A stretch of 32,000 nt of DNA from an uncultured Actinomycetes bacterium (GCA_963843975.1 CAWJMG010000003.1:2310001-2342000); one strand, 5' to 3'. Shown: positions 6,203-22,026, counted from the stretch's first letter. Notes: generated by a model not told the origin, from the letters alone. Numbers and translations: made by a program.

Positions 6203-6259
6203 CGGGATCCTTCGGGACGTCGCGGGTTCGGCTGGCAGGACGTGGAACGTGGTGCGGGG

Positions 6260-7219: not shown

Positions 7220-7266
7220 GGTGCTCCTCTTCCGGACGACCGTCGTGCGACGGTCCGACGTACGGC

Positions 7267-8136: not shown

Positions 8137-8159
8137 GGCGATCCTTCCTCGGGCCGATC

Positions 8160-8222
8160 GGTCCGCGAACGGACGGGAACGGTGCTGCGTCACGTGGTCA
8201 ATCCACGTGGGTGGAGGTGAAC
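8160..8222 (-). promoter_or_regulatory. Candidate regulatory cluster upstream of the 7267..8136 gene: GTTC-repeat units plus a perfect 7-5-7 palindrome
   Basis: Read on the minus strand, the order is GTTCACCTCCA (8222-8212), then CACGTGG-TCAAT-CCACGTG (8191-8209), then GTTCCCGTCC (8180-8171) and GTTCGCGGACC (8170-8160). All lie within a 160-bp intergenic gap. Confidence 0.35.
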
Positions 8223-9575: not shown

Positions 9576-9717
9576 GTGCTCTCCCTGGTCAGGACGTCGG
9601 AACCTCGGTCGGTCATGCTGTCGATCCGCCACGCACTCCGGCCTGACACGGGATGACGCCTGCCCGAAGGCCCGGTGAACAGCGGGCGGCGTCCTCACTC
9701 CATCGGGTGACGCCGTC

Positions 9718-10860
9718 TCAGCGCCTGGCGCTCACGAGCGCTTCCTCCGCGGGCCCGGAGCCCCGCACCCGACGGCCGGCGGGCGGCTCGGTGAGCCGAC
9801 GGCGGCGGATGAGGAGCGCGAGCAGCAGGACCAGAAGGAGCAGGCAGCCCACGACGAGCCACGGGACCGCCCAGAACTGCGTCGTCGCGGTCACCGGCTC
9901 CGAGGGCGGGTTCGCGTCGCCCTCGGCCGCGAGCGGGAAGACCCGCACCGTCGCGGTCATGAGCAGCTGCGGCGTCACCTCGGGCACGGGGATGGTGAAC
10001 GTCGCCGTGCCTCCGGGGAGGAGCAGCGGGACGTCGGGGACCTCGGCCGCCTCCACGGCTCCCCCGAAGATGCCGGCGACTCCGACCGACTGGCGGCCGC
10101 CGAGCCGCACGTTCCCGGTGTTCCGCACCGTGTAGGTGACGACCGCGGTACCGCGCCCGAACGGGTTGAGCGTGCCGTTGTACCGGGCGGAGAGACCCTC
10201 GACCGAGAGCTCCGCCTTCAGCTCGCCGGCGACACGGACCGCCATCTTGAGGGCGACGCGCTGCTCGAGCTTGACGACCGATCCTCGGTCTCCCGGCGTC
10301 GCGCCCTTGGCCACGGTCGACACGACGATGCCCGCGAGGTGGTCGCCGACCGGGGCGCCCTTCGGGATGGTGACGCGGAACGGCACGAACAGCGTCTGCT
10401 TGGGCGCGAGCTTCACGAACGGCTTGCCGGAGGGTGTGGTGAAGACGACCCACTTCGCGGCGTCGGCGATCTTCGCGGCAGCCGGCTGCAGGCCGAGCTC
10501 GCCGTCGGGGCCGTTGACCGCGTCGACGGCGTACAGGTTCAGCGTGAGGGGGACGGTCGAGAGGTTGACGACCGCCACCTCGTCCTTGACCACTCCGCCA
10601 CGTGTGCTGAGGAGCGTGTAGCCCGTCCTCAGGTCGAGCTTGCCCTTGCTCGACGGGCCGAGCCCGTAGGTGACCGTGGTCGGTGGTGCTGAGGCCGTCG
10701 ACGAGGGCGACGGCGAGGGCGACGGGCTGGCGGCGAGCGCGGGGCCGGACGCGCCCACGAGCAGGGCCAGGGCGAGCGCGGAAGCGCTGAGCGGGGCGAG
10801 CAGGCGGCGGGCGATCACCCCCGTATCCGACCGGGTCCGTGCGACGTGCGGGCCAAGCAA
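9718..10860 (-). CDS. DUF916-like (CscA-like) cell-surface protein with a C-terminal TM anchor (380 aa)
   Basis: A signal peptide is followed by SPSPSPSPS. The pattern resembles DUF916: YGLGPSS..LDLRTGYTLLSTRGGVVKDEVAVVNLSTVPLTLNLYAVDAVNGPDGELGL and WVVFT...VKLAPKQTLFVPFRVTIPKGAPVGDHLAGIVV. C-terminal TM WLVVGCLLLLVLLLALLIRRRR. The assignment is by eye only. Confidence 0.65.
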   Translation of the reverse strand: MLGPHVARTRSDTGVIARRLLAPLSASALALALLVGASGPALAASPSPSPSPSSTASAPPTTVTYGLGPSSKGKLDLRTGYTLLSTRGGVVKDEVAVVNLSTVPLTLNLYAVDAVNGPDGELGLQPAAAKIADAAKWVVFTTPSGKPFVKLAPKQTLFVPFRVTIPKGAPVGDHLAGIVVSTVAKGATPGDRGSVVKLEQRVALKMAVRVAGELKAELSVEGLSARYNGTLNPFGRGTAVVTYTVRNTGNVRLGGRQSVGVAGIFGGAVEAAEVPDVPLLLPGGTATFTIPVPEVTPQLLMTATVRVFPLAAEGDANPPSEPVTATTQFWAVPWLVVGCLLLLVLLLALLIRRRRLTEPPAGRRVRGSGPAEEALVSARR

Positions 10861-10939: not shown

Positions 10940-12694
10940 TCAGGCGCCGATCACCGTGAAGGTGATGACACCGGTGTAGAGACCGGCGGTGACGCTGGTG
11001 GGCGCCGTCACCGTCAGGGTGCCCTGCGCGGTCGTGGTACCGAGACCGTTGTTGGCGTGCAGGATCGAGTGCGGCGCGGTGCCGCCCAGACCCTGGTTGC
11101 CCACGTTGTTGTAGGTCAGGTACTGACCGGCGGGGTTGTCGAACGCCGAGAAGTTCGTGGCGGCGTTCGGGCTGCCCGCAGGCAGGTTCAGCGTTGCGGT
11201 GCTGTCGACGGCGTTCGTCGTGAAGGTGAGACCCGTGAGACCGACGTTGTTGCTGCTGATGGTCTCGGTCGGGCCGGCCGCACCCTTGGTGAAGGTCGAC
11301 GACAGTGCCTGGGCGGTCCAGGCGGTGTTACCGGCGCGCGTGTCGGCGACGGTGATGTTGGCGAAGGTCGCCGTGGCCGAGAAGCCGTTGACGCCGTTGA
11401 GGGTCATGGGACCCATGGCGAGCGGCGAGGCGGCGGTGTACGGCGTGTTGATGGTGATGACGCCCGCGGGGACCTCGACCGTGACGGTCTGCGGGTCCGT
11501 GTCGAGCGGCGTGAGGTTCGCCGTCACCGAGAAGGACGCAGCCGGGCTGGTCGACGCTGCGAAGGCGGTGCCACCCACGGCGCTGCCGAGGTAGTCGGCG
11601 GTGACCGAGTACGGGCCACCGGTCGGCTTGAAGACGCTCAGCGTGGCGACGCCGGAGGCGTTGACCGCGATGGGCGAACCGACGTTGGCGCCGTCGACCT
11701 TGAACTGCACCTGGCCCACGGTGACGGGCGAGGCGCCGTTGGTCACCGTCGCGGTGGCCACGACGGCAGAGCCGTTCGTGACTGACGCGGCGGACAGACC
11801 GAGGCCGGTGCTGGTCGCGACGCTGTTCTGCGTCACGGTCAGCGTGGTGCTGCCGGTGCTGTTGCCGTAGTTCGACGTCGCGTCCGATCCGCCGGTGAAG
11901 ACGGCCGAGACGGCCTTGGCGCCGGCCGCCAGCGAGGAGTACGAACCCGAGACCGCGACGCCGGCCGCGTTCACCGCGACCGGGGCGCCGAAGTTCACGC
12001 CGTCCACCTTGAACTGCACCGAGCCCGCGATCGCCGAGCCGGAGGCCGGCGAGACGGTGGCGGTGAAGGTGCTCGAGCCGAGCGTGTCGATCGAGGCGGG
12101 CGCGGCCGACACGACGGTCGTGGTGGCCACGTTCTGCAGGATCGGGCCGGCCGAGGCGACCGAGCCGTTGGCGGCGATCACGACGCGGCCGCTGAACTCG
12201 CCCAGCGTCGCCGACGAGGTCAGCGTGCGGCAGACGAGCTCGACGAGGTAGGTGCCCTGGCCGAGGGCCGCGAGGCCGTTGTTGGACGCGAACTGCTGGA
12301 GCGTCTGGGAGACCGGAGCGGTGAACGCCTGGTTGATGCCACCGGCAATGGTCGAGCCGGCGGTGTTGCCCTGGATGTTCGGCGCGGTCGGGGGCGTGGC
12401 CAGGTTGGCCGTGTTGCCCGGGACGCTCGGGTCGTTCGAGACGCGGATCTGGAAGTTCGTGGCGTTGGTCGGCGTGGTGGGGCAGCCGGCCGAGGTGGCC
12501 ACGGAGAAGGGGGCGCTCTGGGCCGAGCCGGCGGAGATGCCGGTGAAGCTCAGCGCACCGATCTGTGCGGCGGAGGCCGCCGGGGCTGCCACGAGGGCAG
12601 CCCCGGCGACGAGCGCCGCAGAAAGTCCGGCCACAGAGGCGCGGGTGAGGAGACGCTTCATGAGTGAGTCAGTCGCTTTCTGCGTTGGTGTCAC
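10940..12694 (-). CDS. Secreted surface protein (584 aa). It has the shared two-Cys N-terminal domain, two Ig-like (Big-type) domains and a C-terminal WxL-like domain (CscB/C-like).
   Basis: Signal peptide ...LSAALVAGAALVAAPAASA; the start may instead be ATG 12661 (MKRLL). Ig-like segments read GSVQFKVDGVNFGAPVAVNAAGVA and GQVQFKVDGANVGSPIAVNASGVA. The C-terminal ~190 aa reads ITVADTRAGNTAWTAQALSSTF ... GLYTGVITFTVIGA, resembling the two-motif WxL architecture. Confidence 0.7.
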   Translation of the reverse strand: MTPTQKATDSLMKRLLTRASVAGLSAALVAGAALVAAPAASAAQIGALSFTGISAGSAQSAPFSVATSAGCPTTPTNATNFQIRVSNDPSVPGNTANLATPPTAPNIQGNTAGSTIAGGINQAFTAPVSQTLQQFASNNGLAALGQGTYLVELVCRTLTSSATLGEFSGRVVIAANGSVASAGPILQNVATTTVVSAAPASIDTLGSSTFTATVSPASGSAIAGSVQFKVDGVNFGAPVAVNAAGVAVSGSYSSLAAGAKAVSAVFTGGSDATSNYGNSTGSTTLTVTQNSVATSTGLGLSAASVTNGSAVVATATVTNGASPVTVGQVQFKVDGANVGSPIAVNASGVATLSVFKPTGGPYSVTADYLGSAVGGTAFAASTSPAASFSVTANLTPLDTDPQTVTVEVPAGVITINTPYTAASPLAMGPMTLNGVNGFSATATFANITVADTRAGNTAWTAQALSSTFTKGAAGPTETISSNNVGLTGLTFTTNAVDSTATLNLPAGSPNAATNFSAFDNPAGQYLTYNNVGNQGLGGTAPHSILHANNGLGTTTAQGTLTVTAPTSVTAGLYTGVITFTVIGA

Positions 12695-12700
12695 GAACGA

Positions 12701-13729
12701 TCAGGACTGGCTGGACGTGTCGCCACAGCTCGGGTTCGCACCGAAGCCGTTGGCGGTGATGACCGACGTCTGCTGGCAGACGAGGCTGGAGCCACCCACG
12801 AAGACGGTGCTCCACGGGGCGACCGCGATCTTCGAGGTCGGGATGATGTTGAACAGGTCGCGCGAGACCGGGAAGGACGCGTTGCCGTTGACGGGCAGCG
12901 TGCCGCCGATCTGGCCGAGCACGTTCAGGGCGCCGCGGACGTCGGTGTTGTTGCCGGCGGCCTGGACGTTGTAGAGGCCGATCGAGAACGGCATGATCTC
13001 GTCGGTCTTGAGCGAGCGGCCGTCGTTCTCCTGGACGTACGGACGACCGGTGCCGGGGACGCCGTTCACCGTGGTGCCGACCGGCACGAGGCAGGGGTAG
13101 GTGCCCGCCGAGATCTGCGCCTCGGTGATGCCCATCTGCCCGATCCAGAACGCGCGCGAGCCGGAACCGGTCTGCGGGAGCACCGGCCAGATGTCGGGCG
13201 TGAAGAGGCACTTGTAGACGTTCTGGACGTCGGTGAGGCCGAGGCCGACGCGCGCCACGTTGCCGTCACCACGGGTGATGTAGGTGCTGGAGTCCTTGGC
13301 GAACGGGATGAAGGTAAGCGACGGCGTCGAGGTGAAGGTGCCCTTCGCCGACGACGAGCGCGAGAAGTCGAGGCAGCCCGACCGCGGGTCGGCGGCCTGC
13401 AGCGACTCGAGCAGGCGCGAGCGGCCTGCACCGGAGCCGTTGGCCTCGGTGCGGGTGTAGGTGCACGCCGCGTTGGCGGTGCGGGTCTGGAACGTCGCGG
13501 GCGAGCCGATGGCGTCCCACGACGCGATCTGCTTCACGCCGCCGATCTGGACCGCGTCGGCCAGGTCGTTCATGACGTTCTGCGTGGTGTCCGAGCCGAC
13601 ACCCGTGAGAGCGCGGCTGCCGCCGGCCGGGGTTCCGTTCGGGTCGGCCGAGGCCGGGGATGCCGAGAGCAGCCCCGCCGCGACCAGGCCGACGCCAGCG
13701 ACGGCGGCCAGGGTCTTCGAGATCTTCAC
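12701..13729 (-). CDS. Secreted PstS-family/PBP-like substrate-binding protein (342 aa), ligand unknown
   Basis: GTG at 13729 is preceded by GGGAGAGGA. Signal peptide MKISKTLAAVAGVGLVAAGLLSASPASA. PBP-like motifs are LTGVGSDTTQNV, NGSGAGRSRL, LDFSRSSS and QTGSGSRAFW. There are six cysteines. It lacks the RxDGSGTT phosphate-clamp motif. Confidence 0.7.
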   Translation of the reverse strand: MKISKTLAAVAGVGLVAAGLLSASPASADPNGTPAGGSRALTGVGSDTTQNVMNDLADAVQIGGVKQIASWDAIGSPATFQTRTANAACTYTRTEANGSGAGRSRLLESLQAADPRSGCLDFSRSSSAKGTFTSTPSLTFIPFAKDSSTYITRGDGNVARVGLGLTDVQNVYKCLFTPDIWPVLPQTGSGSRAFWIGQMGITEAQISAGTYPCLVPVGTTVNGVPGTGRPYVQENDGRSLKTDEIMPFSIGLYNVQAAGNNTDVRGALNVLGQIGGTLPVNGNASFPVSRDLFNIIPTSKIAVAPWSTVFVGGSSLVCQQTSVITANGFGANPSCGDTSSQS

Positions 13730-13829
13730 GATCTGGTCCTCTCCCTGAGGTGATCGACCAGCCCTGTGCCGGTCGGTCGGGTGGTGCAGCGAGCCGTGGT
13801 GCGGTGGTGCGGTGGACCGATCGCCTCCG

Positions 13830-16321
13830 TCAGGTGCGACGGGATGCGATCCACGGCAGGACGGTCCTGGCGAGCAGGGCCGACAGGCCGAGTACGAGGG
13901 CGGCCAGCAGGGCGAGACGGCTCGCCGAGGCTGGGTCCGCGGGGGTCGGCGCCGACGCGGCCACCGGCTGGGTGGACGGTGTCGAGGTCGGCGCCGGTGC
14001 CGAGGTGGTCGGGTCAGGAGTCGGGCTCTCGCCGCCGGTCGCCGGCACTCCGGCGCCGTCGTCGGGGACGACGACCGGGGTCGGCTCCGGCGTCGGGGAC
14101 GACTCCGTCGGAGTCGGGGTCGGGGTGGGCGTCGGCGTCGGTGTCGGCGCCACGTAGCTCCGCAGCGCGGCCGCCGCTGCGACCGTCTTCGCCGTGAGCG
14201 CGTCGGTCAGCGGGAGGTACCCCTCGGGCAGCTGCCCGGGAGCGGTGCCCGGCGTCTGCCCGGCACCGGCGGCGTAGGTGAGGAGCTTGGCGTAGTCCTC
14301 GCGACGGTCGGCCGTGAGCTTGGCGGGGACGGTCGCCGCGTAGCTCACGATGGTCAGCGGGTACGCAGCCGCGTTCGTCGTCGTGAGGTTCGGGAGGAGC
14401 ACGCCCTGCTTGTCCGGCGGCATGGCCGAGACGGCTGCGGACATCGAGGCCTGGTCGGGCGCGACGAAGGCGCCCGAGGCGTTCTTCAGCGCCACCGCCA
14501 CCTGGCGGTACCGCGCGGCCGACGCGGTGTCGGTCAGCCCGAGCATCGACCGCTGTCCGAGGGTCTGGTTCGGGGAGAGGCCGTACGAGTTGACCACCGC
14601 GAGCTTGGGCACGTCGCGACGGTTCGTGTCGCCGCGGCTCACCTGGCGGGCCGTGGCGTTGAAACCCGCGGCGTACGGGTAGACGTCGAGCGTGCAGTTG
14701 GCGAGGTCGAAGCCCGGCGGCGCGTTCGGCGGCACCTGGCAGCCGAGGTCCGCCCGGGGGAACGAGCTCGTGGGCAGGGTGAGCCCGACGTACTTCTCGT
14801 TGAGCTTCATGCCCCACGGGTCAGCCTTGCCGGCGAGGAACGCTGCGGCCTCGGGGTCCGACACGATGTAGCGCCACAGGAGGTCGGCGGAGTCCGACAG
14901 GCCGGCGTTCACCAGGAGCCGGCCGAGGCCACCGCCGATGAGGACCGTGTAGCCCTGCGGCTTGAAGTCCGGGTTGATGGCGAGGAAGTCGGGATCGCGC
15001 GAGATGTCGTACGGGTTCGTGCCGACGTTGGTCGCGGTGCCGTTCGCGAGGTCGAACGGGTAGCTCTGGGTCATGAGCTTGGCGAGCAGGCGCGGGGTCA
15101 GGTTGACCTGTTCGATGCGCGACCCGACCTTGCCGCGGATGTCGGCGGGGACGGAGTCCGGGCCGATCGGCTTGCCGCTGGGGTCGCGGACCGGCATCTG
15201 ACGGTCGACGTTGGCGACGAAGGTCATGGCGCTCACCGCCACCGGGGCGTAGACCACGCCCTTGGTCGACGGGTCGCTGCTGGTGACGAAAGCGAGACCC
15301 GGGTCGTCCGAGGCGATCTGCTGCCGGGTGGTGTCGTCGGACAGGCTGGTGAAGCCGTAGTTGTTGGCGCCGAGCCCGCACAGCTCGGGCTGCCACGCCG
15401 TGATCGCCTCGGTGATGAAGTCGGTGCCGAAGGTCGGGGTTTCGGGGCGGCCGAAGCTGCAGGCCGCACCGATGGGCTGGAAGGCGAGCGGGATGGTGAT
15501 CGCCTGCGTGAAGTTCGTGGTCGACAGCGGCGACGTGGAGAGCCAGTCGTCCGACCGGGTGCCGACGACCGTGCCGTCGACCTCGGTGAGACTGCGAGGC
15601 ACGATCACGAGGAAGCAGTTCGGCGTCCGGCCGTTGATGCTCTGGCCGCAGCCGAGGCCCGGGGCCTCGAGGCCGGTCTGCATCTCGAAGAACGCCTGGC
15701 CGGTGCCGTCCTGCGCCGTTCGGCCGATCGGGATCTCGTTGGTCGTCGAGCCGTCGAAGAACTGGCTGCGACGCTCGGTCTCGACCGTGCCGTCGACGCC
15801 GTGGAACTCGACGTACTTCTGGGTGAAGTCGCCCGGAGCCTGGACGTAGACCGTCTCGTTCGGGTCCTTGACCGGCTGTGTCATCTGGCGGGACGCGATG
15901 TTGGCCGAGCCGTCCGGCACGTCGACGAAGCCGCCGTACTGGCACTGCTCGCGGGTGGGCTTCTGGCCCGGCTCGGCCCAGCACTGCATGAGCTGCATGT
16001 AGTTGCCCAGCACGGTGCCGCTGCCCGTGACGAGGGAGGGGGCGGCGTTCTTCCACGTGACCGTGACCGACTGGTTGACGAGGTCGGTCGTCTGGTCGAC
16101 GGTGAACTCGACCGACGAGAACTCACCCGTGCCGGTGACCGTCACGGGCTCGTGGCCGCCGCCGCGCGCGGTGAGATCGATGCCGCCGCGTCCTCCGCCG
16201 GGCCGCCCACGAGGACGGTCGGCACGACTGCGAACGCAGCCGCCACCGCGACGGCGACGCCGCGCGCAACACGCTCGCCGGTGATCCGGCGGCGCGGCCG
16301 GGTGGTGAGGACGTGGCTCAC
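13830..16321 (-). pseudogene. Large (~830 aa) secreted PstS-family-like protein with a P/T-rich stalk and C-terminal TM anchor. An apparent 1-nt frameshift lies between the signal peptide and the mature part (or is a sequencing error).
   Basis: GTG 16321 overlaps the upstream TGA (GTGA). It encodes the signal peptide VSHVLTTRPRRRITGERVARGVAVAVAAAFAVVPTVLVGGPAEDAAA, then hits TGA after 59 codons. The body (IDLTARGGGHEPVTVTGTGEF...) reads in the -1 frame. The span is 2492 nt (3n+2). The C-terminal half has PstS-like ends: YPLTIVSYAATVP...LLTYAAGAGQ...LPEGYLPLTDAL. Then come (PT)n and TM LALLAALVLGLSALLA with tail SRRT. The 997-aa track ORF is an artefactual upstream extension. Confidence 0.7.
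13920..14150 (-). repeat. Low-complexity P/T-rich stalk-coding region, including (PT)7
   Basis: The translation is APTPTPTPTPTPTPTESSPTPEPTP...SAPAPTSTPSTQP, immediately before the C-terminal TM helix. Confidence 0.8.
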
Positions 16322-18031
16322 GAGCTACCGCCCTTACGGGCGAGGCGGGACACGACCGGCGGGGCCATGACGGCCGCGAGCAGGACGATGCCCGCGAGCA
16401 GGATGAGCGAGCCGGAGGCGCCTGAGGCAGCACCCGTGGCGGTCGAGACGGGGACTGCCGCGACCGGCACGCCGCCGTCCGTCGTCGTGTCGCCGCCCGA
16501 GGAGCCGCCGTCGGCGGGCAGACCGGTGTCGGGGTCGACGACGTCGCCGCCGGAGGAGCCGGCGCCACCGCCCGACGTGCTGCCGTCGCCCCCGGAGGTG
16601 GACCCACCTCCCGTCGAGCCGCCACTGCTGCCGCCGGAGGTCGAACCGCCGCCGGAGGAGCCGCCGCTCCCGCCGGACGAGCCACCGCTCGAGCCACCTG
16701 AGGAGCCACCGCCCGAGCCGGACCCGCCGGACGAGCCGCCCGACTTCGCGGTGCCGCACTGGAGCGGGCCGTTCTTGTCGCAGGCGGCAGGGAACGGCGC
16801 GGACTTGGCCAGGGTGTTCTCACCGGTCGCCGAGAAGGTCGGGTTGTTGCACTTCTTGATGTCGACGTTCTCGACCGTCACGCCCGGGATGCGCTTGACC
16901 TGCTTGAGGCCGGCCTGCACGAGGTTGATCGGGAGCGGCGAGAAGCCGAGGCGCGGCGCCTGCTGCTGGCCCTCGCACAGGAAGTAGTACGCGAACGCGC
17001 CGAGCGACTTGCCCTTGGCGGCGTTGAAGGTCCCCTCGACCGCGGTGGGGATGACCATGTAGCTGTAGCTCGACAGCGGGTACGCGCGGGCGTCCCCGTT
17101 GTTGTAGACCCCCGAGAGGTCCTGCGTGAGGTAGGTCGGGTCGGTCTCCGCGACCTTGTCGTTGATCTTCGCCTTGAGCAGACCCACCGCGACGTTCTGG
17201 GGGGTGGGCTCGACGTAGTAGCCGGCCTTGTTGAGCAGCTTCACGACAGGGAAGCCCGCGTTGAGCGCGTAGGAGTACTCGACGTAGGTGATCGTGCCCT
17301 CGTTCTGCTGCTGCGAGACGTATCCCGAGACGCCCAGCGATCCGGCCTGGGCGGTGAAGCCCTTGCCGGAGACCACCGGGTAGATCGACGTGGTTCCGCA
17401 AGGGGTCGGGCGGTTGGCCTGCTTGCAGTAGCTGTCCCAGAGCCCCTGGTACTGCTGGGAGAGGTACGTCGTGAACTGGGCCGTGGTACCCGAGCCGTCG
17501 CCGCGGACCACCGGCACGATCTTGCGGCCCGGCAGCACGAGGCCCGGGTTGTCCTTCTTGATCTGCGGATCGGCCCAGCTGGTGATGACCCCGGTGAAGA
17601 TCTTCGCGATCGTCTCGCCCGACAGCCGCAGCTGAGTGACGCGCTTGCCGCCGATCTTGAGGTTGTACATGAACGACGTGCCACCGGCGACGATCGGCAT
17701 GTAGGCGTACTTGCGCGACGGCGGTGAGTCGACGACGCCGGCGTCCTTGAGTCCGTAGGGGATCTCGGACACGGCGAAGTCGACGGTGCCGTTGCGGAAC
17801 TGGTTGCGGCCGTCGGAGGAGCCGGTGCCGGCGTAGTTCACGCGCAGGCCGTACTGGTTGACGTTCTTGCGCCACTGCTCGATGGCGTTCTGGCTCCAGG
17901 TGGAGCCGGCGCCGGAGATCGGGACGTACGCTCTCGGCCTGCGCAGCCCCCAAGGACACGGACAGCCCGGCGAGCGTCGCGGCGACGACGACGGAGCCTG
18001 CGCGCAGCAGTCGCGTGGCGCGACGCGTCAT
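16318..18031 (-). pseudogene. pstS: Phosphate-binding protein PstS homologue with a C-terminal Gly/Ser stalk and TM anchor. An apparent 1-nt frameshift lies just after the signal peptide (or is a sequencing error).
   Basis: The body carries the PstS phosphate-clamp motifs ISGAGSTW, YAGTGSSDG, DFAVSEIP and VVRGDGSGTTAQFTTYL. ATG 18031 (RBS GAGGCGGAGG) encodes MTRRATRLLRAGSVVVAATLAGLSVSLGAAQAES in a different frame from the body. The frames meet near 17925-17940. The span is 1714 nt (3n+1). There is no lipobox Cys. The C-terminus has 92 aa of G/S-rich sequence, then LILLAGIVLLAAVMA and SRLARK. Confidence 0.75.
16471..16746 (-). repeat. Low-complexity Gly/Ser-rich stalk-coding region
   Basis: The translation is KSGGSSGGSGSGGGSSGGSSGGSSGGSGGSSGGGSTSGG.... 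The DNA consists of degenerate GGN/AGC-type repeats. Confidence 0.8.
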
Positions 18032-18105
18032 CGCTGGCCTCCGCCTCTCGTCCACCCTCATGGCCGACCCATCGGTCGTTCCCCCGCGCTGAGCGAAGCG
18101 GAGCG

Positions 18106-19407
18106 TCATGAAGTCGTGTCTCCTTCTGAGGGGCTAACAGGTGAACTCGTGGCAGGGAGCGGTACCCGAGCGGGTGAGGCCGGTGACTCGTCGTCGTCGA
18201 CCATGCGCTGGAAGTCACGGCGGGACTGCGCGGCAGCACGGCGGCGCTGGCGGTTGCTCAGCTGGCCGGGGCCGCGGCCCCCCACGATGCGGGCAAGGAT
18301 GAACAGGATCAGGACCAGCACGAGGAGCACGGTCGCGGCGCCGAAGCCGCGCTGCTTGAAGGTCTCCTCGGACGAGCCGATGAACTTGAACGCCGCCAGC
18401 GGGAGGCTGATCATCGGGCCGTCGAGCGGGTTGAAGTTCAGCGACTGCGTGAAGCCTGCGGTCAGCAGGACGGGCGAGGTCTCACCGACGCCGCGGGCGG
18501 TGCCCAGGATGATCGCGGTCATGAGACCGGAGCGCGCCGTCGGCAGCGTCACGTGCCACACCGTGCGGATCTGGCTGGCGCCGAGCGCGTACGACGCCTC
18601 CTTGAGGTTGCCCGGCACGAGCCGGAGCACGACGTCGGACGCGCGGATGATGATCGGCAGCATCATCACGCTGATCGCGAGAGCGGCGGCGAGCCCCGAC
18701 TTGGGCCTGTCGAAGATGATGATGAACGTGGCGTAGATGAACAGGCCCGCGATGATCGAGGGCAGCGCCGTCATCGCCTCGACGATGATGCGCACGAAGC
18801 GGGAGAACCGGTTCGGCAGCTCGTTCATGAAGACCGCGGTTGTCACGCCGAGTGGGATCACGATGACCAGCGCGATGGTGATCATGATCAGCGAGCCGAC
18901 CATCGCGTGCAGGATGCCGCCGGAGTCGAGCGGGTCGAGCGGCCCGGTGTTGCTCATGTCCTCGGTGTAGAAGTTCGTGTGCTTCAAGGCCTCGATGCCG
19001 TTGATGACGACGTAGCTCACGACCCACACCAGAGCGCCGACGAGGACCGTCGCCAGCGACGTGACCACTGCTGCCACGAGCCGGTCGACGACCGCCGTGC
19101 CGTCCTCGTCCTGCCACACGACGAGTGCGTACACCGCCAGGAAGATGCCGTACGCCACGAGGACGAAGCCGACGACGCTGTTGAACGGCGCGATGAAGTT
19201 GAAGATGATCGCGGTCAGCGAGACGGCCGCGATCGCCGCCCCGAGCAGCTGCAGCACGTCGGACAGACGCACCTTCGCGATCGGTCGCTTCGCGGCCGGC
19301 GGCTGGGAGAAGTCGTGGTTGACGACCGTCGTGCGCGCCCCGTCGGCCGGCGCGGAGCCCAGGGCTACCGCGAGGAGCTCGGCGCGGTCGATCTCGGTGG
19401 TGGACAT
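18106..19407 (-). CDS. pstA: Phosphate ABC transporter permease PstA
   Basis: Motifs include ...EAMTALPSIIAGLFIY..., PGNLKEASYALGASQIRTVWHVTLPTARSGLMTAIILGTARGVGETSPVLLTAGF and multiple TM helices. The start lies 1 nt after the pstC stop. Confidence 0.9.
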   Translation of the reverse strand: MSTTEIDRAELLAVALGSAPADGARTTVVNHDFSQPPAAKRPIAKVRLSDVLQLLGAAIAAVSLTAIIFNFIAPFNSVVGFVLVAYGIFLAVYALVVWQDEDGTAVVDRLVAAVVTSLATVLVGALVWVVSYVVINGIEALKHTNFYTEDMSNTGPLDPLDSGGILHAMVGSLIMITIALVIVIPLGVTTAVFMNELPNRFSRFVRIIVEAMTALPSIIAGLFIYATFIIIFDRPKSGLAAALAISVMMLPIIIRASDVVLRLVPGNLKEASYALGASQIRTVWHVTLPTARSGLMTAIILGTARGVGETSPVLLTAGFTQSLNFNPLDGPMISLPLAAFKFIGSSEETFKQRGFGAATVLLVLVLILFILARIVGGRGPGQLSNRQRRRAAAQSRRDFQRMVDDDESPASPARVPLPATSSPVSPSEGDTTS

Positions 19408-19408
19408 G

Positions 19409-20461
19409 TCAGGCCTCCGCGCCGGCGCCGGAGCGGCTGCGCGCGACGATCGCGCCGGCCGCGAAGTTGATGATCAGCGTGAGGACGAACAGCGCGAGGC
19501 CGGCGGCGAAGAGCGCGCTCGTGGCGAACGGTGTCGACTCGCCGTACCGCAGCGCGATGAGCGCCGACACCGTGTAGCCGCTGCCGCTGTTCTGCAGGAT
19601 GTGGAAGCCGAGGTCGAACGCCGGCGCCAGGATCAGATAGACCGCGATCGTCTCGCCCAGTGCACGGCCGAGGCCGAGCATCGTGCCGCCGATGATGCCG
19701 CCGCGTCCGTAGGGCAGGACGACCGAGCGGACCATGCCCCACTTCGTCGCGCCGAGGGCGTAGGCGCCCTCGCGCTCGCCGGGAGGGGCCTGGGTGAAGA
19801 CCTCGCGCATGACCGACGTGGCGATCGGCGTGACCATCAGTGCCACCACGATGCCCGCGATGAACGCGCTCGAGGTGAAGACGCTCGCGGGCGACAGCGG
19901 GTCTGCCGGATCGGCGCCGTCCACGCGGAAGATCGGGATGAACCCGAGGTACGTCGAGATCCAACGGGCGACCGGCGCGATCTCGTACTGCAGCAGCAGG
20001 AATCCCCAGATGCCGAACACGATGGACGGCACTGCGGCCATCAGGTCGACAATCGTGATCAGAGGGCGCTTGATCCGCAGCGGTGCGTACTCCGAGATGA
20101 ACAACGCCGTGCCGAAGGCGAGCGGGAACGAGAAGAAGACCGCGACGAGGGCGACCAGGATCGTTCCGGTCAGGACCGCTGCGATGCCGAACGTCCCGGA
20201 GTCCGGATCCCACTGGGCGGTGGTGAGGAACGACCAGCCGGCAGCCTGGATCGCCTGCAGCGCACGGAATCCCAGGAAGAGGCCGACGGCCAGCATGACG
20301 AGCAGGACGAACCAGCCGCTCGCCCGGAGGACTGAGCGGAACACGCGGTCGGCGACGGTCTGGCGACCGACCGGCGGTCCCTGCTTCGGCCGCGGCCGAG
20401 GCTCGCCGATCGCGATGCCCGAGTCGACCCCGGTGCCCTGGTCCTCGATGGTCGTGGTCAT
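19409..20461 (-). CDS. pstC: Phosphate ABC transporter permease PstC (350 aa from ATG 20461)
   Basis: Motifs include FISEYAP..IKRPL..IVDLMAAVPSIVFGIWG and GEREGAYALGATKWGMVRSVVLPYGRGGIIGGTMLGLGRALGETIAV. ATG 20461 overlaps the upstream TGA (ATGA). The 67 codons further upstream in the track ORF look non-coding. Confidence 0.9.
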   Translation of the reverse strand: MTTTIEDQGTGVDSGIAIGEPRPRPKQGPPVGRQTVADRVFRSVLRASGWFVLLVMLAVGLFLGFRALQAIQAAGWSFLTTAQWDPDSGTFGIAAVLTGTILVALVAVFFSFPLAFGTALFISEYAPLRIKRPLITIVDLMAAVPSIVFGIWGFLLLQYEIAPVARWISTYLGFIPIFRVDGADPADPLSPASVFTSSAFIAGIVVALMVTPIATSVMREVFTQAPPGEREGAYALGATKWGMVRSVVLPYGRGGIIGGTMLGLGRALGETIAVYLILAPAFDLGFHILQNSGSGYTVSALIALRYGESTPFATSALFAAGLALFVLTLIINFAAGAIVARSRSGAGAEA

Positions 20462-20883
20462 GAGGCGCTCTCCGCAGGAAGGACGTCGGCCGAGAGCCGC
20501 TGCCAGGGGAACTCGGTGGTGGTGCCCGTGTCGGCCGCCGGAGCGATCGGGGCGATCTCGCGGAACTGCTCGAGGTTGTAGCGGCACTCGCGCTCGTGCC
20601 TGAACCCGCGACCTGAGGTCGCGATGACGCGACTGTCGTCGGCAAGCAGGTGCCACGCCCACGAGCCCGTGGCCGGGTCGTGCAGGATGTGCGCCGCTCC
20701 GACGGCGGCGAGCTCGCGCACGTCCGCAACTGCGGACAGGGCAGCCTCCGCGTCCGGGTACGCGATCGCGGCTCGGCCGAGCTCACGGTTGTTGGCACCG
20801 AGGAGGCGCCAGCCGACTCCCCCGGCCGCGGGCTCGTGCACCAGGCGGCCGCCCGGGACGAGCTGGAACCGGGGAGTGGACAC
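20458..20883 (-). CDS. Tandem DUF1508 (YegP-like) protein, 141 aa, translationally coupled to pstC
   Basis: There are two YegP-like repeats: GWRLLGANNRELGRAAIAYPDAEAALSAVADVRELA and WAWHLLADDSRVIATSGRGFRHERECRYNLEQFREIA. There is no signal peptide. GTG 20883 is preceded by AGAGGGG. The stop overlaps the pstC ATG. Confidence 0.65.
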   Translation of the reverse strand: MSTPRFQLVPGGRLVHEPAAGGVGWRLLGANNRELGRAAIAYPDAEAALSAVADVRELAAVGAAHILHDPATGSWAWHLLADDSRVIATSGRGFRHERECRYNLEQFREIAPIAPAADTGTTTEFPWQRLSADVLPAESAS

Positions 20884-20962: not shown

Positions 20963-20995
20963 GAGGCCGACGGGAAGGTGAACGACCGGAGTTGG
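20963..20995 (-). promoter_or_regulatory. PHO-box-like direct repeats (candidate PhoP-type response-regulator site) upstream of the DUF1508-pstCA genes
   Basis: The minus strand reads GTTCATGTTTC CAACTCCGGTC GTTCACCTTCC, i.e. three 11-nt units with the outer two starting GTTCA. The site lies 80-112 nt upstream of GTG 20883. Confidence 0.5.
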
Positions 20996-21060
20996 AAACA
21001 TGAACGGTCCCGTCGGGCCCGAGACCTCGGGCGACGGGCAGGCGGCTCGAGCGCCCGCTG

Positions 21061-22026
21061 CTAGCCGACCCGGCGGTCGAGCCACGCGAGCGTGGCGTCT
21101 CGCCACCACGCCTGATGGCTGCGCAGGTACGGCGATCCCGGCACCTCCGGCTGTGCGGAGCACACCAGGAAGAAGCCGGCGAGAGCGGCCAGGAAGGAGA
21201 CGAGCGAGCTGTCATGGACTCCTTCGCTGAGCGGGCTCGCTGCCCACAGCGCGTCGGCGTCGAGGCCGTCGCCGTGCACCGACACGAGCAGCGACGCGAG
21301 GTCGAGCCACGCTGCCCCGAGAGTCAGGTGGTTCCAGTCGCACACGAGGACCGACCCGTCGGGCCGTACGAGGATGTTGTCGTCACGCAGGTCGAAGTGC
21401 AGCCCGGTCGTTCCCGAGCAGCGCTCGAGCCATGCCGCCTCGGCAACCGCGAGGTCGTCGACCCTGGCCACCCAGTCATCGGAGAGCGCGACGGCGAGCG
21501 CCTCGCTGTCGCCGGCGGACCGTCGCCGCCAGAACGTGAAGTCGTCGTCCCACTCGGTCAGCGGGTGCGGGGCGGGCAGGAGGCCGGGCACCGGCGTCAG
21601 CTCGTGCGCCATGAGCTCGCACGCGTCCAGCACCGCGTCCAGCTCCGCCGGGTCCCACGGACGCACCGGGTGCCGGGCCTCGACGTCCTCGAAGGCCGAC
21701 ACGAACCAGGCGCCGAGGTCTCGGGTCCAGAGCAGACGCGGTGCGGGGACGGCCTCCGGCAGCCCTCGGACGACCGCCGCCTCGCGCTCGTACGACGGCC
21801 GCGCGAACACATGCTGCTCGGACGTCGCGGCCTTCACGAACAGACGGCGTCCGTCCTCGAGCTCGAGGCGGCTCGCGAAGCCGCTCGTGAATCCACCGCC
21901 TTGCGACAACGCTTGGTGCACAGGTGATCCGGCTGCCTCCTCGATGGCTCGACGAACGTCGGGCGGCAGGTCGTCGAAGGCGGGCCGTACGGCGCTGCCC
22001 GTCTGCGGGACGCGCAGGGGGATCAC
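21061..22026 (-). CDS. Aminoglycoside/choline-kinase-type phosphotransferase (APH) family protein
   Basis: The Brenner/APH motif LHFDLRDDNILVRPDGSVLVCDWNHLTLGAAWLDLASLL is present. GTG 22026 overlaps the upstream TGA (GTGA). Confidence 0.75.
   Translation of the reverse strand: MIPLRVPQTGSAVRPAFDDLPPDVRRAIEEAAGSPVHQALSQGGGFTSGFASRLELEDGRRLFVKAATSEQHVFARPSYEREAAVVRGLPEAVPAPRLLWTRDLGAWFVSAFEDVEARHPVRPWDPAELDAVLDACELMAHELTPVPGLLPAPHPLTEWDDDFTFWRRRSAGDSEALAVALSDDWVARVDDLAVAEAAWLERCSGTTGLHFDLRDDNILVRPDGSVLVCDWNHLTLGAAWLDLASLLVSVHGDGLDADALWAASPLSEGVHDSSLVSFLAALAGFFLVCSAQPEVPGSPYLRSHQAWWRDATLAWLDRRVG

What the first reader, a model, noticed from the sequence alone, without database searches (positions are those of the whole stretch)
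12701..18031. Three tandem PstS-family paralogues, two anchored by C-terminal stalk plus TM instead of an N-terminal lipid
Directly after pstA lie three binding-protein homologues. The first is a true PstS by motif (ISGAGSTW, DFAVSEIP, RGDGSGTT) with no lipobox Cys. It ends in a 92-aa Gly/Ser stalk, a TM helix and a basic tail. The second is an ~830-aa protein whose C-terminal part has PstS-like termini but large insertions and a ~250-aa N-terminal extra domain. It ends in a (PT)n stalk, a TM helix and the tail SRRT. The third is a 342-aa secreted PBP-like protein with six Cys and no RxDGSGTT clamp. Actinobacterial PstS proteins are normally N-terminally lipidated. A C-terminal tail anchor with a long flexible stalk would place the binding domain far from the membrane, perhaps within or beyond the wall. 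The graded divergence suggests different ligands (Pi versus phosphorylated polymers or esters) or a relay.
Basis: partly seen in the sequence, partly recalled or inferred. Interest (0 to 1): 0.7.

Follow-up and report, generated by a model that had tools for sequence, protein, structure and literature searches.

The report
Tail-anchored phosphate-binding proteins in a surface-protein operon
The three proteins really are relatives of the phosphate-binding protein PstS, two of them tethered to the membrane by a long C-terminal stalk. They sit in a large, apparently undescribed operon, conserved across hundreds of actinobacterial species, that joins a phosphate importer to sortase-attached wall proteins.

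Summary
On the minus strand after pstC-pstA lie P1, P2 and P3.

- **P1** is a PstS with an intact phosphate site, no lipobox, a 112-aa Gly/Ser-rich stalk, a TM helix and a basic tail.
- **P2** is ~830 aa. It has a family-specific ~235-aa N-terminal beta domain and a PstS-fold domain that has lost all eight canonical phosphate ligands. It ends in a Pro/Thr stalk, a TM helix and SRRT.
- **P3** is a secreted 342-aa PstS-fold protein with six invariant Cys.

AlphaFold models (pLDDT 95 and 90.5) match PstS structures best.

There are three corrections:
1. In this window P1 and P2 each carry a 1-nt frameshift just after the signal peptide. Orthologues are intact, so assembly error or pseudogenes are both possible.
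2. P3's missing Arg/Asp "clamp" matches the known S-type PstS class, which still binds phosphate. It does not argue for a different ligand.
3. The trio is part of a ~18-kb operon: yegP-pstC-pstA-P1-P2-P3, then Ig-like/WxL-like surface proteins, a sortase and pstB. A PHO-box-like element lies upstream. The gene order is conserved in nearly all 80 genomes examined, and relatives occur in at least 562 species.

The most likely function is a phosphate-starvation-induced second Pst importer with a wall-associated capture apparatus. This is a new variant of a known kind, and I found no prior description.

The parts
20979..21005 (-). PHO-box-like element: three 11-nt units, GTTCATGTTTC CAACTCCGGTC GTTCACCTTCC, about 120 nt upstream of yegP
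   Evidence: One match against 0.02 expected by chance. It is identical in L001 and differs by one base in L002, while the flanks diverge. A TTCA-N18-TTCA element occurs in 25/56 upstream regions against 0.6% background. It fits the published DRu consensus G(G/T)TCAYYYR(G/C)G (PMC2275107). PhoP binding was not tested.
20461..20883 (-). yegP-like small protein (141 aa), the first gene of the operon; its end overlaps the pstC start
   Evidence: PF07411 DUF1508 at E 1.2e-8, two repeats. Present upstream of pstC in 51/64 loci.
19409..20461 (-). pstC permease (350 aa)
   Evidence: TIGR02138 at 255.8 bits, cutoff 196. 95% identical to the L001 orthologue.
18106..19407 (-). pstA permease (433 aa, with N- and C-terminal extensions)
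   Evidence: TIGR00974 at 224.7 bits, cutoff 193. Its stop overlaps the P1 ATG (ATGA). It is fused to P1 in other genomes.
16318..18109 (-). P1: D-type PstS with a signal peptide (AQA|ES). PBP domain 16867..17931, 4-Cys module 16744..16866, Gly/Ser stalk 16408..16743, TM 16351..16407, basic tail 16321..16350. A 1-nt insertion at about 17929 breaks the frame.
   Evidence: TIGR00975 at 208.3 bits (cutoff 205) and PF12849 at 1.5e-40. Ligand mapping to E. coli/Y. pestis PstS is. The frameshift is shown.
13830..16321 (-). P2: ~830-aa tail-anchored protein. Signal peptide, N-terminal beta domain 15435..16145, PstS-fold domain with insertions 14151..15434, Pro/Thr stalk 13917..14150, TM 13845..13916, tail SRRT. 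A 1-nt deletion at about 16146-16148 breaks the frame.
   Evidence: AF2 pLDDT 95, pTM 0.93. Foldseek finds PstS-1 1pc3 at E 2.4e-13. hhalign against the long-PstS family gives 97.2%, E 3e-11. The N-domain occurs only in this family. The frameshift is shown.
12701..13729 (-). P3: secreted 342-aa S-type PstS-like protein with six invariant Cys and no anchor
   Evidence: AF2 pLDDT 90.5. Foldseek top hits are short PstS proteins (9l8j, 1twy, 4q8r; E 3.5e-8). 38/75 family members hit PF12849.
10940..12694 (-). Secreted Ig-like protein (584 aa): N-terminal two-Cys domain, two Big_3_5 domains and a WxL-like C-terminus
   Evidence: PF16640 at 3.5e-18. PF13731 WxL at E 0.017, 15.5 bits, below the cutoff of 25. 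Syntenic in 59/63 loci.
9718..10860 (-). WxL-interacting-protein-like surface protein with a C-terminal TM and an RRRR tail
   Evidence: PF06030 WxLIP_PGBD at E 4.3e-4, 20.7 bits, below the cutoff of 27.3. Syntenic in 52/57 loci.
8673..9698 (-). Secreted protein with an LAHTG sortase signal, a TM and a basic tail
   Evidence: The sequence ends ...GTLAHTGADPLAPLGSGLLLLLVGALLVAAAGGSRAYVPRH. There is a weak NF058583 LAXTG match.
7267..8193 (-). Surface protein (308 aa) with a signal peptide, a two-Cys domain and a C-terminal TM with a basic tail
   Evidence: Translation. The L001 orthologue is 60% identical.
6260..7270 (-). Surface protein (336 aa): two-Cys domain, (TPTV)n repeat and an LAQTG sortase signal
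   Evidence: Translation. The tandem DNA repeat is at 6486..6724.
4859..6202 (-). Secreted Ig-like protein (447 aa): two-Cys domain plus Big_3_5
   Evidence: PF16640 at 5e-12.
3789..4715 (-). Membrane-bound sortase (308 aa)
   Evidence: PF04203 at E 2.7e-10. Syntenic in 47/49 loci.
2868..3734 (-). pstB-like ATPase (288 aa), the last gene of the operon
   Evidence: TIGR00972 at E 1.4e-101, 339 bits, just under the cutoff of 343.2. Syntenic in 47/49 loci.

Best explanation
The three genes belong to a conserved actinobacterial operon that most likely encodes a second, phosphate-starvation-induced Pst-type phosphate importer built for a thick cell wall.

Shown:
- PstC, PstA and a PstB-like ATPase form a complete ABC importer.
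- P1 is its cognate binding protein. It is a D-type PstS with an intact phosphate site. It is translationally coupled to PstA here and fused to PstA in other species.
- P1 is exported with a cleavable signal peptide and carries a C-terminal TM helix behind a flexible stalk of about 110 residues. It has no N-terminal lipid.

Inferred:
- The long tether lets the binding domain sample the wall zone and return to the permease.
- P3 is a freely secreted S-type PstS that probably still binds phosphate or a simple phosphate ester, with lower affinity.
- P2 is a PstS-derived, tail-anchored protein that has lost the phosphate site and gained an N-terminal beta domain. It most likely acts as a scaffold or adaptor rather than a phosphate carrier.
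- P1-P3 work together with the co-encoded Ig-like/WxL-like proteins and the sortase as a wall-associated assembly. This assembly would capture phosphate in or beyond the wall and pass it inward. The heme (Hta/Hmu) and zinc (Znu) systems of Corynebacterium work in a comparable way.
For: Transporter and P1:
- PstC and PstA score above the curated cutoffs and PstB scores 339 against a cutoff of 343.
- P1 passes TIGR00975. It keeps 7 of 8 E. coli PstS ligands; the eighth, Asp56, is an invariant Glu.
- pstA and P1 overlap by ATGA, and at least 10 relatives are single PstA-PstS polypeptides that keep the AxA site and the C-terminal TM.

Anchors and folds:
- The anchor and stalk are conserved family-wide.
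- P2 and P3 have PstS folds.
- P3 carries the S-type signature (against PMC13614923).

Context:
- In 80 species genomes the neighbours are P1 67/69, PstC 67/67, P3 74/74, sortase 47/49 and PstB 47/49.
- The PHO-box-like element is enriched upstream: 25/56 regions against 0.6% background.

Precedents:
- C-terminal-TM receptors plus sortase-anchored proteins next to ABC importers occur in C. diphtheriae (PMC11725911; PMC12445094).
- An S-type and a D-type PstS share one pst cluster in Synechocystis.
Against: - No experiment exists on any member. I found none in the searched literature.
- P2 keeps none of the canonical ligands, so it cannot carry phosphate in the known way.
- No phosphatase, nuclease or other hydrolase is encoded in the operon.
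- The PHO-like element was not detected in Actinoplanes, Amycolatopsis or Pseudonocardiales loci.
- Assigning Arg290 as the S-type triad arginine rests on motif resemblance only (one search found nothing).
- In this window P1 and P2 are frameshifted, so the system may be inactive in this strain.
- The WxL and WxLIP matches are below the Pfam thresholds.
Confidence: 0.5

Rival explanations
1. P2 and/or P3 recognise phosphorus-containing compounds other than free phosphate. Candidates are wall teichoic-type polymers, polyphosphate, extracellular DNA and phosphate esters. They would concentrate these at the surface for hydrolysis by enzymes encoded elsewhere, and only P1 would feed the transporter.
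For: P2's pocket is remodelled: acidic residues replace Thr10 and Ser38, and the S-G-T loop is deleted. It has a conserved extra domain found nowhere else. The S-type protein SphX also responded to beta-glycerophosphate.
Against: P3 keeps the full S-type phosphate signature. An acidic P2 pocket fits anionic polymers poorly. No hydrolase is encoded in the operon.
Confidence: 0.2
2. The surface proteins, with P2 and P3, form a Csc/WxL-like adhesion or wall-organising complex. Its function would be unrelated to phosphate transport and it would merely be co-transcribed with a Pst paralogue. The PstS folds of P2 and P3 would then serve as structural or wall-binding modules.
For: The operon contains WxL-like and WxLIP-like proteins, LAxTG substrates and a sortase, much as Firmicute csc clusters do. 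P2 has lost the phosphate site.
Against: The surface genes are always nested between pstA/P1 and pstB, never separate. P3 keeps phosphate-type residues. P1 is tightly coupled to PstA.
Confidence: 0.15
3. In this particular organism P1 and P2 are pseudogenes. The two frameshifts would be real mutations and the system would be decaying.
For: Both indels are specific to the window. P1's is absent from three relatives (L001, L002, L088). P2's is seen relative to L088, and L001 encodes an intact 830-aa P2. The P1 insertion is not in a homopolymer. Both hit the same place, just after the signal peptide.
Against: No further stops or indels occur in about 4.3 kb of the two genes, and 14 neighbouring genes are intact. 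The source is a 2.76-Mb contig. Related assemblies from this clade show split hits or truncated gene calls consistent with indel errors (L036; L088). The P2 deletion lies in a C run.
Confidence: 0.25
4. The C-terminal hydrophobic segment plus basic tail of P1 and P2 is a cleaved sorting signal, not a permanent membrane anchor. It would lead to covalent wall attachment, as reported for ZnuF, which lacks an LPXTG motif.
For: ZnuF has the same signal layout, is wall-attached, and needs none of the sortases SrtA-F tested. A dedicated sortase is encoded in the operon. Short conserved motifs precede the TM: AAVPVST in P1 and TPxxPxGxxR in P2.
Against: Neither P1 nor P2 has an LPXTG or LAXTG motif. 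The true LAHTG and LAQTG substrates are present in the same operon. A binding protein fixed in the wall could not dock on PstCA. The PstA-P1 fusions argue for a membrane location.
Confidence: 0.15

Closest known systems
Canonical PstSCAB high-affinity phosphate importer (E. coli; the pstSCAB systems of Streptomyces and Mycobacterium, with lipoprotein PstS)
   Same: It has PstC, PstA, a PstB-like ATPase and a D-type PstS with the same ligand set. A PHO-box-like sequence lies upstream, as at Streptomyces pstS.
   Different: - The gene order is pstC-pstA-pstS...pstB, with about 12.6 kb of surface-protein genes inserted.
- PstS has no lipobox and is anchored by a C-terminal stalk and TM.
- The low-barrier-hydrogen-bond Asp is an invariant Glu.
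- There are two extra PstS-fold proteins.
- P1 scores only just above the TIGR00975 cutoff, and PstB scores just below its cutoff.
Synechocystis pst1 cluster, with S-type SphX next to D-type PstS1 (PMC13614923)
   Same: One pst locus encodes both a D-type binder (P1) and an S-type binder (P3). P3 shares SphX's Asp->Ser and Arg->Pro substitutions.
   Different: The Synechocystis proteins are the binding proteins of a Gram-negative cyanobacterium. That cluster has no tail anchors, no P2-like protein and no sortase or surface proteins. Phosphate binding by P3 is untested.
Corynebacterium diphtheriae surface-receptor/ABC-importer loci: HtaA/HtaB-HmuTUV for heme, and ZnuAECB with ZnuF/ZnuG for zinc
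   Same: Actinobacterial ABC importers are co-encoded with secreted ligand-binding proteins held by a C-terminal TM plus a basic tail, and with sortase-signal proteins. For heme, a relay across the wall has been proposed.
   Different: The ligands and folds differ (CR domains, HxD/HxH motifs). In those systems the transporter's own binding protein is still an N-terminal lipoprotein. Here the transporter's binding protein is itself tail-anchored, and the accessory proteins are its own paralogues.
Crenarchaeal oligopeptide-class binding proteins (Sulfolobus, Aeropyrum)
   Same: They have an SPase-I signal peptide, a C-terminal TM segment and a preceding Ser/Thr-rich stretch (PMC3387779).
   Different: They come from a different domain of life, a different binding-protein class and a different substrate. 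No equivalent has been reported for PstS, as far as my searches show.
Firmicute Csc / WxL cell-surface-complex gene clusters
   Same: They combine a WxL-type C-terminal domain protein, a DUF916/WxLIP-type protein with a C-terminal TM, and a sortase-signal protein. That these co-occur in Firmicute csc clusters is recalled from the literature and was not checked here.
   Different: Both Pfam matches here are below threshold. Firmicute clusters are not nested inside a pst operon and contain no PstS-fold proteins.
Binding proteins fused to their permease (OpuA and GlnPQ type)
   Same: In some relatives PstA and P1 are one polypeptide.
   Different: The fusion keeps a signal-peptidase site and a second, C-terminal TM. 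In the window the two are separate, overlapping genes. Knowledge of OpuA/GlnPQ is recalled and was not checked here.

Membership tests
PstS, D-type (TIGR00975 / PF12849), for P1 | Profile score above the curated cutoff | tested here: met
   TIGR00975 at 208.3 bits against 205; PF12849 at 140.1 bits against 27. The margin over the TIGR cutoff is small.
PstS, D-type (TIGR00975 / PF12849), for P1 | Eight phosphate ligands of E. coli PstS (T10, F11, S38, D56, R135, S139, G140, T141) plus D137 | tested here: met
   The alignment to 2z22/1ixh gives T, W, S, E, R, S, G, T and D137=D. All are invariant in 42 relatives. D56 is Glu, a conservative change of unknown effect.
PstS, D-type (TIGR00975 / PF12849), for P1 | Encoded next to pstC/pstA/pstB | tested here: met
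   It overlaps the pstA stop. pstB is in the same operon, 12.6 kb downstream.
PstS, D-type (TIGR00975 / PF12849), for P1 | N-terminal lipoprotein signal, usual for Gram-positive PstS | tested here: not met
   No lipobox in P1 or in any of 120 relatives. PstS of S. lividans is described as a lipoprotein (PMC2605767 abstract).
PstS, D-type (TIGR00975 / PF12849), for P1 | Binds orthophosphate with high affinity | not testable with these tools
   Needs ITC or an equivalent assay on purified protein.
PstS-type PBP fold (PBP_like_2), for P2 | Type-2 PBP fold closest to PstS | tested here: met
   Model pLDDT 95. The 44 best PDB matches are all PstS/DING, with target-normalised TM-scores up to 0.78. 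hhalign gives 97.2%, E 3e-11, over 319 columns.
PstS-type PBP fold (PBP_like_2), for P2 | Pfam/NCBIfam score above the cutoff | tested here: not met
   No Pfam hit. TIGR00975 scores 25.5 bits against 205, on residues 608-714 only.
PstS-type PBP fold (PBP_like_2), for P2 | Canonical phosphate ligands | tested here: not met
   T10->Asp/Glu, S38->Asp, D56->gap, R135->variable, and the S-G-T loop is unaligned or deleted.
S-type PstS (SphX, C. perfringens PBP-1, V. cholerae 1twy, P. aeruginosa 4omb), for P3 | PstS fold of the short type | tested here: met
   Model pLDDT 90.5. The top Foldseek hits are 9l8j, 1twy, 4q8r and 4ecf, at E 3.5e-8 to 2.8e-7. The family profile hits 1twy at E 0.0099.
S-type PstS (SphX, C. 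perfringens PBP-1, V. cholerae 1twy, P. aeruginosa 4omb), for P3 | The low-barrier-hydrogen-bond Asp is replaced by Ser | tested here: met
   The LDFSRSSS motif places invariant Ser126 at the D56 position. The definition comes from PMC13614923.
S-type PstS (SphX, C. perfringens PBP-1, V. cholerae 1twy, P. aeruginosa 4omb), for P3 | Conserved N-terminal Thr, central Asp and C-terminal Arg triad | tested here: inconclusive
   Thr48 lies in GSDTT, and the same GSDT motif occurs in 4omb. Asp146 lies in FAKD, aligned to 1twy LAFDG. Arg290 in FPVSRDLF is invariant, but its equivalence to SphX Arg231 is inferred from motif shape only, because the PDB search of that half found nothing.
S-type PstS (SphX, C. 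perfringens PBP-1, V. cholerae 1twy, P. aeruginosa 4omb), for P3 | Pfam PBP_like_2 score above the cutoff | tested here: inconclusive
   The window copy gives no hit at E<=0.1. 38 of 75 family members match PF12849, with a best E of 5.4e-11.
Sortase-dependent surface-protein locus | A sortase gene plus substrates carrying an LPXTG/LAXTG motif, a TM and a basic tail | tested here: met
   PF04203 at 2.7e-10. LAHTG (8673..9698) and LAQTG (6260..7270) are each followed by a hydrophobic segment and a basic tail.
Csc / WxL cell-surface complex cluster | WxL domain protein and DUF916/WxLIP protein above the Pfam thresholds | tested here: inconclusive
   WxL scores 15.5 bits against 25. WxLIP_PGBD scores 20.7 bits against 27.3. 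Both cover the expected regions but are sub-threshold.
PhoP (PHO) regulon | At least two consecutive 11-nt direct repeat units matching G(G/T)TCAYYYR(G/C)G near the promoter, bound by PhoP | tested here: inconclusive
   Two good units (GTTCAT..., GTTCAC...) flank a poor middle unit. The element is conserved and enriched in relatives. Binding and induction cannot be tested here.
Actinobacterial wall-spanning ligand relay (Hta/Hmu, Znu type) | Surface receptors with a C-terminal TM co-encoded with an ABC importer | tested here: met
   compared with PMC11725911 and PMC12445094.
Actinobacterial wall-spanning ligand relay (Hta/Hmu, Znu type) | Ligand transfer between the receptors and to the transporter's binding protein | not testable with these tools
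   Needs biochemical transfer assays.

The most novel reading that the evidence does not exclude
The operon encodes a previously unrecognised, sortase-assembled phosphate-harvesting apparatus of the actinobacterial cell wall. A freely diffusing S-type PstS (P3), a degenerate PstS-derived scaffold on a stalk (P2) and a long-tethered high-affinity D-type PstS (P1) would form an affinity-graded relay. This relay would carry an inorganic anion across the wall to PstCAB, held in place by Ig-like/WxL-like proteins. It would be the first relay of this kind for phosphate rather than for heme or metals.
Probability: 0.3. Interest if true: 0.8.

Novelty: new variant of a known kind. Interest (0 to 1): 0.62.

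Why it matters
Phosphate limits growth and controls antibiotic production in soil actinobacteria, yet uptake is discussed almost entirely in terms of the lipoprotein-based PstSCAB and Pit systems.

A second Pst system exists in at least 562 species, including many Streptomyces, Kitasatospora, Actinoplanes and Amycolatopsis. It has a tail-anchored binding protein, two PstS-derived accessory proteins and its own sortase and surface proteins. If it works as proposed, three things follow:
- Thick-walled bacteria would solve phosphate capture with a dedicated wall-level apparatus, as they do for heme and zinc.
- P2 would be a clear case of a binding-protein fold recruited to a non-transport role.
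- The conserved, uncharacterised P2 N-terminal domain would gain a functional context.

All of this is directly testable in culturable hosts.

Tried and rejected
Searches that led nowhere:
- Direct Pfam/NCBIfam scans of P2 and P3 gave nothing above threshold, so I moved to profile-profile and structure comparison.
- I tried to confirm the P3 Arg290 equivalence by searching PDB sequences with a family member and with a profile of the C-terminal half. Neither gave meaningful hits.
- The source record for the window's own PstA was not on record. Only the 2.76-Mb contig length was recovered.
- The promoter/terminator consensus scan was uninformative in this 71% GC DNA.
- Literature searches for a prior description of this operon, or of a tail-anchored PstS, found none. 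The library is incomplete.

Readings I considered and rejected:
- *Annotation artefact or a lipobox in homologues.* Rejected by 120/120 C-terminal TMs and 0 lipoboxes in P1 relatives.
- *Three recent tandem duplicates.* Rejected because P2 is nearest the long D-type PstS and P3 the short S-type PstS.
- *P1 and P2 as sortase substrates.* No LPXTG or LAXTG motif is present.
- *Missing ATPase.* pstB was found at the far end of the operon.

Full report
**What is in the sequence.** The window is 67-75% G+C. All the relevant genes lie on the minus strand. After pstC (19409..20461; TIGR02138 at 255.8 bits, cutoff 196) and pstA (18106..19407; TIGR00974 at 224.7 bits, cutoff 193) come three secreted proteins.

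P1 (18109..16318) matches PF12849 (E 1.5e-40) and the PstS equivalog TIGR00975 (208.3 bits against a cutoff of 205). It has a signal peptide ending AQA|ES and no lipobox. After the binding domain come a conserved four-Cys module, a 112-residue stalk (68% Gly+Ser), a 19-residue hydrophobic helix and the tail SRLARKGGSS.

P2 (16321..13830) starts at a GTG that overlaps the P1 stop. It ends with a 78-residue Pro/Thr-rich stalk, a TM helix and SRRT.

P3 (13729..12701) is 342 aa, has a signal peptide ending ASA|DP, and has no anchor.

**Two frameshifts.** As written, P1 and P2 are not intact.
- The P1 signal peptide is in a different frame from the mature protein.
- Three relatives (L001, L002, L088) lack one G that the window has at about 17929, in GAGAGC[G]TACGTC.
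- The P2 signal peptide is also out of frame.
- Relative to L088 the window lacks one base at 16146-16148, in GAGCCC-GTGACG.
- In L001 (GCA_038316965.1, about 83% nucleotide identity) both genes are intact, at 598 and 830 aa.
- The other 14 genes shared with L001 each align in a single frame.

The window comes from a 2.76-Mb contig. Related assemblies from this clade show split hits or truncated gene calls consistent with indel errors (L036; L088). I therefore think assembly error is more likely than pseudogenisation. I cannot decide between them, and it is odd that both indels fall just after a signal peptide.

**P1 is a real phosphate-type PstS, and the tail anchor is a family trait.** Alignment to the E. 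coli and Y. pestis PstS structures maps the ligands as follows: T10=T, F11=W, S38=S, D56=E, R135=R, D137=D and S139-G140-T141=S-G-T. All are invariant in 42 relatives. Among the 120 best relatives, 120 have a C-terminal TM, 119 have a basic tail and none has a lipobox. The stalk has a median of 111 residues (range 84-143) and is about 79% Gly/Ser/Thr/Pro/Ala. At least ten relatives are single PstA-PstS polypeptides. In these the former signal peptide links the two halves, and both the AxA site and the C-terminal TM are retained. With the ATGA overlap in the window, this makes P1 the cognate binding protein of PstCA.

**P2 has a PstS fold but no phosphate site.** P2 belongs to a family of about 800-1000-aa proteins annotated as hypothetical. 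The word-indexed search found 335 hits, and the exhaustive search found 476 representatives at 50% identity. An AlphaFold model of the mature core built on 85 sequences has pLDDT 95 and pTM 0.93. Its 44 best PDB matches are all PstS or DING proteins. The best is M. tuberculosis PstS-1 at E 2.4e-13, with target-normalised TM-scores up to 0.78.

Profile-profile comparison with the long-PstS family gives 97.2% probability and E 3e-11. It aligns P2 core residues 240-661. In that alignment none of the eight ligands is kept:
- T10 becomes Asp/Glu.
- S38 becomes a nearly invariant Asp.
- D56 falls in a gap.
- R135 is variable.
- The S-G-T loop is missing.

**P3 is an S-type PstS, so the missing 'clamp' is not evidence for another ligand.** The P3 model (pLDDT 90.5) matches short PstS proteins best: Sll0540 (9l8j), V. 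cholerae 1twy and C. perfringens PBP-1 (4q8r), at E 3.5e-8 to 1.5e-7. 38 of 75 family members hit PF12849, and the family profile hits 1twy at E 0.0099.

A 2026 study defines 'S-type' PstS proteins. In these the low-barrier-hydrogen-bond Asp is Ser, and in SphX the Arg is Pro. Phosphate is still bound through a Thr/Asp/Arg triad, and SphX also responds to beta-glycerophosphate (PMC13614923). P3 has the matching residues:
- Invariant Ser126 at the Asp position and Pro185 at the Arg position.
- The S-G-S/T loop (Ser189, Gly190).
- Thr48 in a GSDT motif that is also present in P. aeruginosa PstS (4omb).
- Asp146 aligned with the 1twy LAFDG Asp.
- Invariant Arg290 in FPVSRDLF.

Only the Arg290 equivalence is inferred rather than aligned. 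P3 relatives never have a C-terminal TM (0/120). It follows that P2 descends from the long D-type lineage and P3 from the short S-type lineage. They are not a graded series of recent duplicates.

Downstream of P3 the same strand encodes:
- a 584-aa protein with two Big_3_5 Ig-like domains and a WxL-like C-terminus (PF13731 at E 0.017, sub-threshold);
- a WxLIP/DUF916-like protein with a C-terminal TM (20.7 bits against a cutoff of 27.3);
- an LAHTG protein;
- three further proteins that share a two-Cys N-terminal domain, one of them with an LAQTG signal;
- a sortase (PF04203 at E 2.7e-10);
- a PstB-like ATPase (TIGR00972 at 339 bits against 343.2).

A DUF1508/YegP-like gene precedes pstC.

A pattern scan with the P2 family found relatives in at least 562 species genomes. 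They include Streptomyces, Kitasatospora, Streptacidiphilus, Actinoplanes, Amycolatopsis, Lentzea, Marmoricola and Motilibacter, and MAGs labelled Nanopelagicales and Acidimicrobiia. In the 80 loci fetched, wherever enough flank was available, the neighbours were:

| Neighbour | Loci with it / loci with enough flank |
|---|---|
| P1 | 67/69 |
| PstA | 67/68 |
| PstC | 67/67 |
| YegP | 51/64 |
| P3 | 74/74 |
| Ig-like protein | 59/63 |
| WxLIP-like protein | 52/57 |
| Sortase | 47/49 |
| PstB | 47/49 |

All are in the same order. This is one conserved operon, in which a Pst transporter brackets a set of surface proteins.

**Regulation.** About 120 nt upstream of the first gene lies GTTCATGTTTC CAACTCCGGTC GTTCACCTTCC (20979..21005). 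This is three 11-nt units, the outer two beginning GTTCAY. The spaced pattern occurs once in the window against 0.02 expected. It is identical in L001 and differs by one base in L002, while the flanks diverge. A TTCA-N18-TTCA element is present at a similar distance in 25 of 56 upstream regions, against 0.6% of random windows. It matches the published Streptomyces PhoP repeat consensus G(G/T)TCAYYYR(G/C)G, for which at least two units are needed (PMC2275107). This points to PHO control but does not prove it. The element was not seen in the Actinoplanes, Amycolatopsis or Pseudonocardiales loci.

**Mechanism.**

*Shown:* a complete Pst-type importer; a cognate D-type PstS with signal peptide, long stalk and C-terminal TM; and two further PstS-fold proteins, one with the S-type signature and one degenerate. 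All are conserved together with a sortase and surface proteins.

*Inferred:*
- The importer takes up orthophosphate under phosphate limitation.
- The stalk lets P1 reach into the wall. Fully extended, 110 residues would span roughly 40 nm (my estimate).
- P3 binds phosphate with lower affinity.
- P2 acts as a scaffold or adaptor.
- The Ig-like/WxL-like proteins hold the assembly in the wall.

Precedents exist in Corynebacterium diphtheriae. There, heme receptors HtaA and HtaB are held by C-terminal TM helices next to HmuTUV (PMC11725911). The zinc proteins ZnuE and ZnuF (C-terminal TM) and ZnuG (sortase signal) lie next to ZnuABC (PMC12445094). The anchor topology itself is known for crenarchaeal oligopeptide-binding proteins, which combine an SPase-I signal, a glycosylated Ser/Thr stretch and a C-terminal TM (PMC3387779). 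Synechocystis pairs an S-type and a D-type PstS in one pst cluster.

Against the relay idea: P2 cannot carry phosphate canonically, no hydrolase is encoded in the operon, and nothing has been tested experimentally.

**Novelty and verdict.** I found no description of this operon or of a tail-anchored PstS in the searchable literature; the library is incomplete. Each element is a known kind: Pst importer, S- and D-type PstS, C-terminal TM receptors and sortase substrates. The combination, the P2 architecture and the anchoring of the transporter's own binding protein are new variants.

Interest is moderate to high, because the system is widespread, uncharacterised and directly testable.

Noticed in passing
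window ~17929 and ~16146-16148 (minus-strand genes P1 and P2): There are two single-base indels, each a few codons after a signal-peptide cleavage site, in adjacent genes. 14 neighbouring genes are intact. It is undecided whether these are assembly errors or real inactivating mutations.
   Followed up: partly
P0261, P0264, P0274, P0286, P0312 and others; L007 10001-12748: In several genomes PstA and the long PstS are one 910-965-aa polypeptide. It keeps the AxA signal-peptidase site and the C-terminal TM. The binding domain is therefore either tethered at both ends or released by cleavage.
   Followed up: partly
P1 family alignment A6 (window 17758..17781, DFAVSEIP): The Asp that forms the low-barrier hydrogen bond in all solved D-type PstS proteins is an invariant Glu in this family. 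This might alter phosphate/arsenate discrimination or affinity.
   Followed up: no
window 10940..12694, 7267..8193, 6260..7270, 4859..6202: Four surface proteins share an N-terminal domain of about 130 aa with two conserved Cys (…TSAGCP…TY…L.CR…). It has no Pfam match. Paralogue identities are 38-52% by tblastn.
   Followed up: no
window 6486..6724: A tandem DNA repeat (periods 24/36/48) encodes (TPTV)n in the LAQTG protein. Shorter repeats underlie the (PT)n stalk of P2 (14106..14149) and the Gly/Ser stalk of P1 (16649..16719).
   Followed up: no
L038 20867..21986 and L044 ~21644: In two Streptomyces genomes a second YegP-like gene and a pstC-like gene follow directly after pstB. This suggests a tandem second copy of the system or of part of it.
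   Followed up: no
L036 (whole locus) and L088 1160..2707, 5794..6413: Related assemblies show fragmented genes consistent with indel errors: in L036 pstC, pstA, P1 and P2 are split into several pieces, and in L088 pstC and P2 are truncated.
   Followed up: partly
window 328..2775 (+) and 21064..23285 (-): Flanking the operon are an 815-aa multi-pass membrane protein with no Pfam match, an MFS transporter and a weak APH-like kinase. They are syntenic with L001 but do not appear to be part of the operon.
   Followed up: no
P1 C-terminus (16408..16450) and P2 C-terminus (13917..13950): Short conserved motifs lie just before the TM helices: AAVPVST in the P1 family and TPxxPxGxxR in the P2 family. 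A Pro-Pro/Pro-x-Leu motif lies at the cytoplasmic end. These could be a recognition signal for an unknown processing or sorting step.
   Followed up: no
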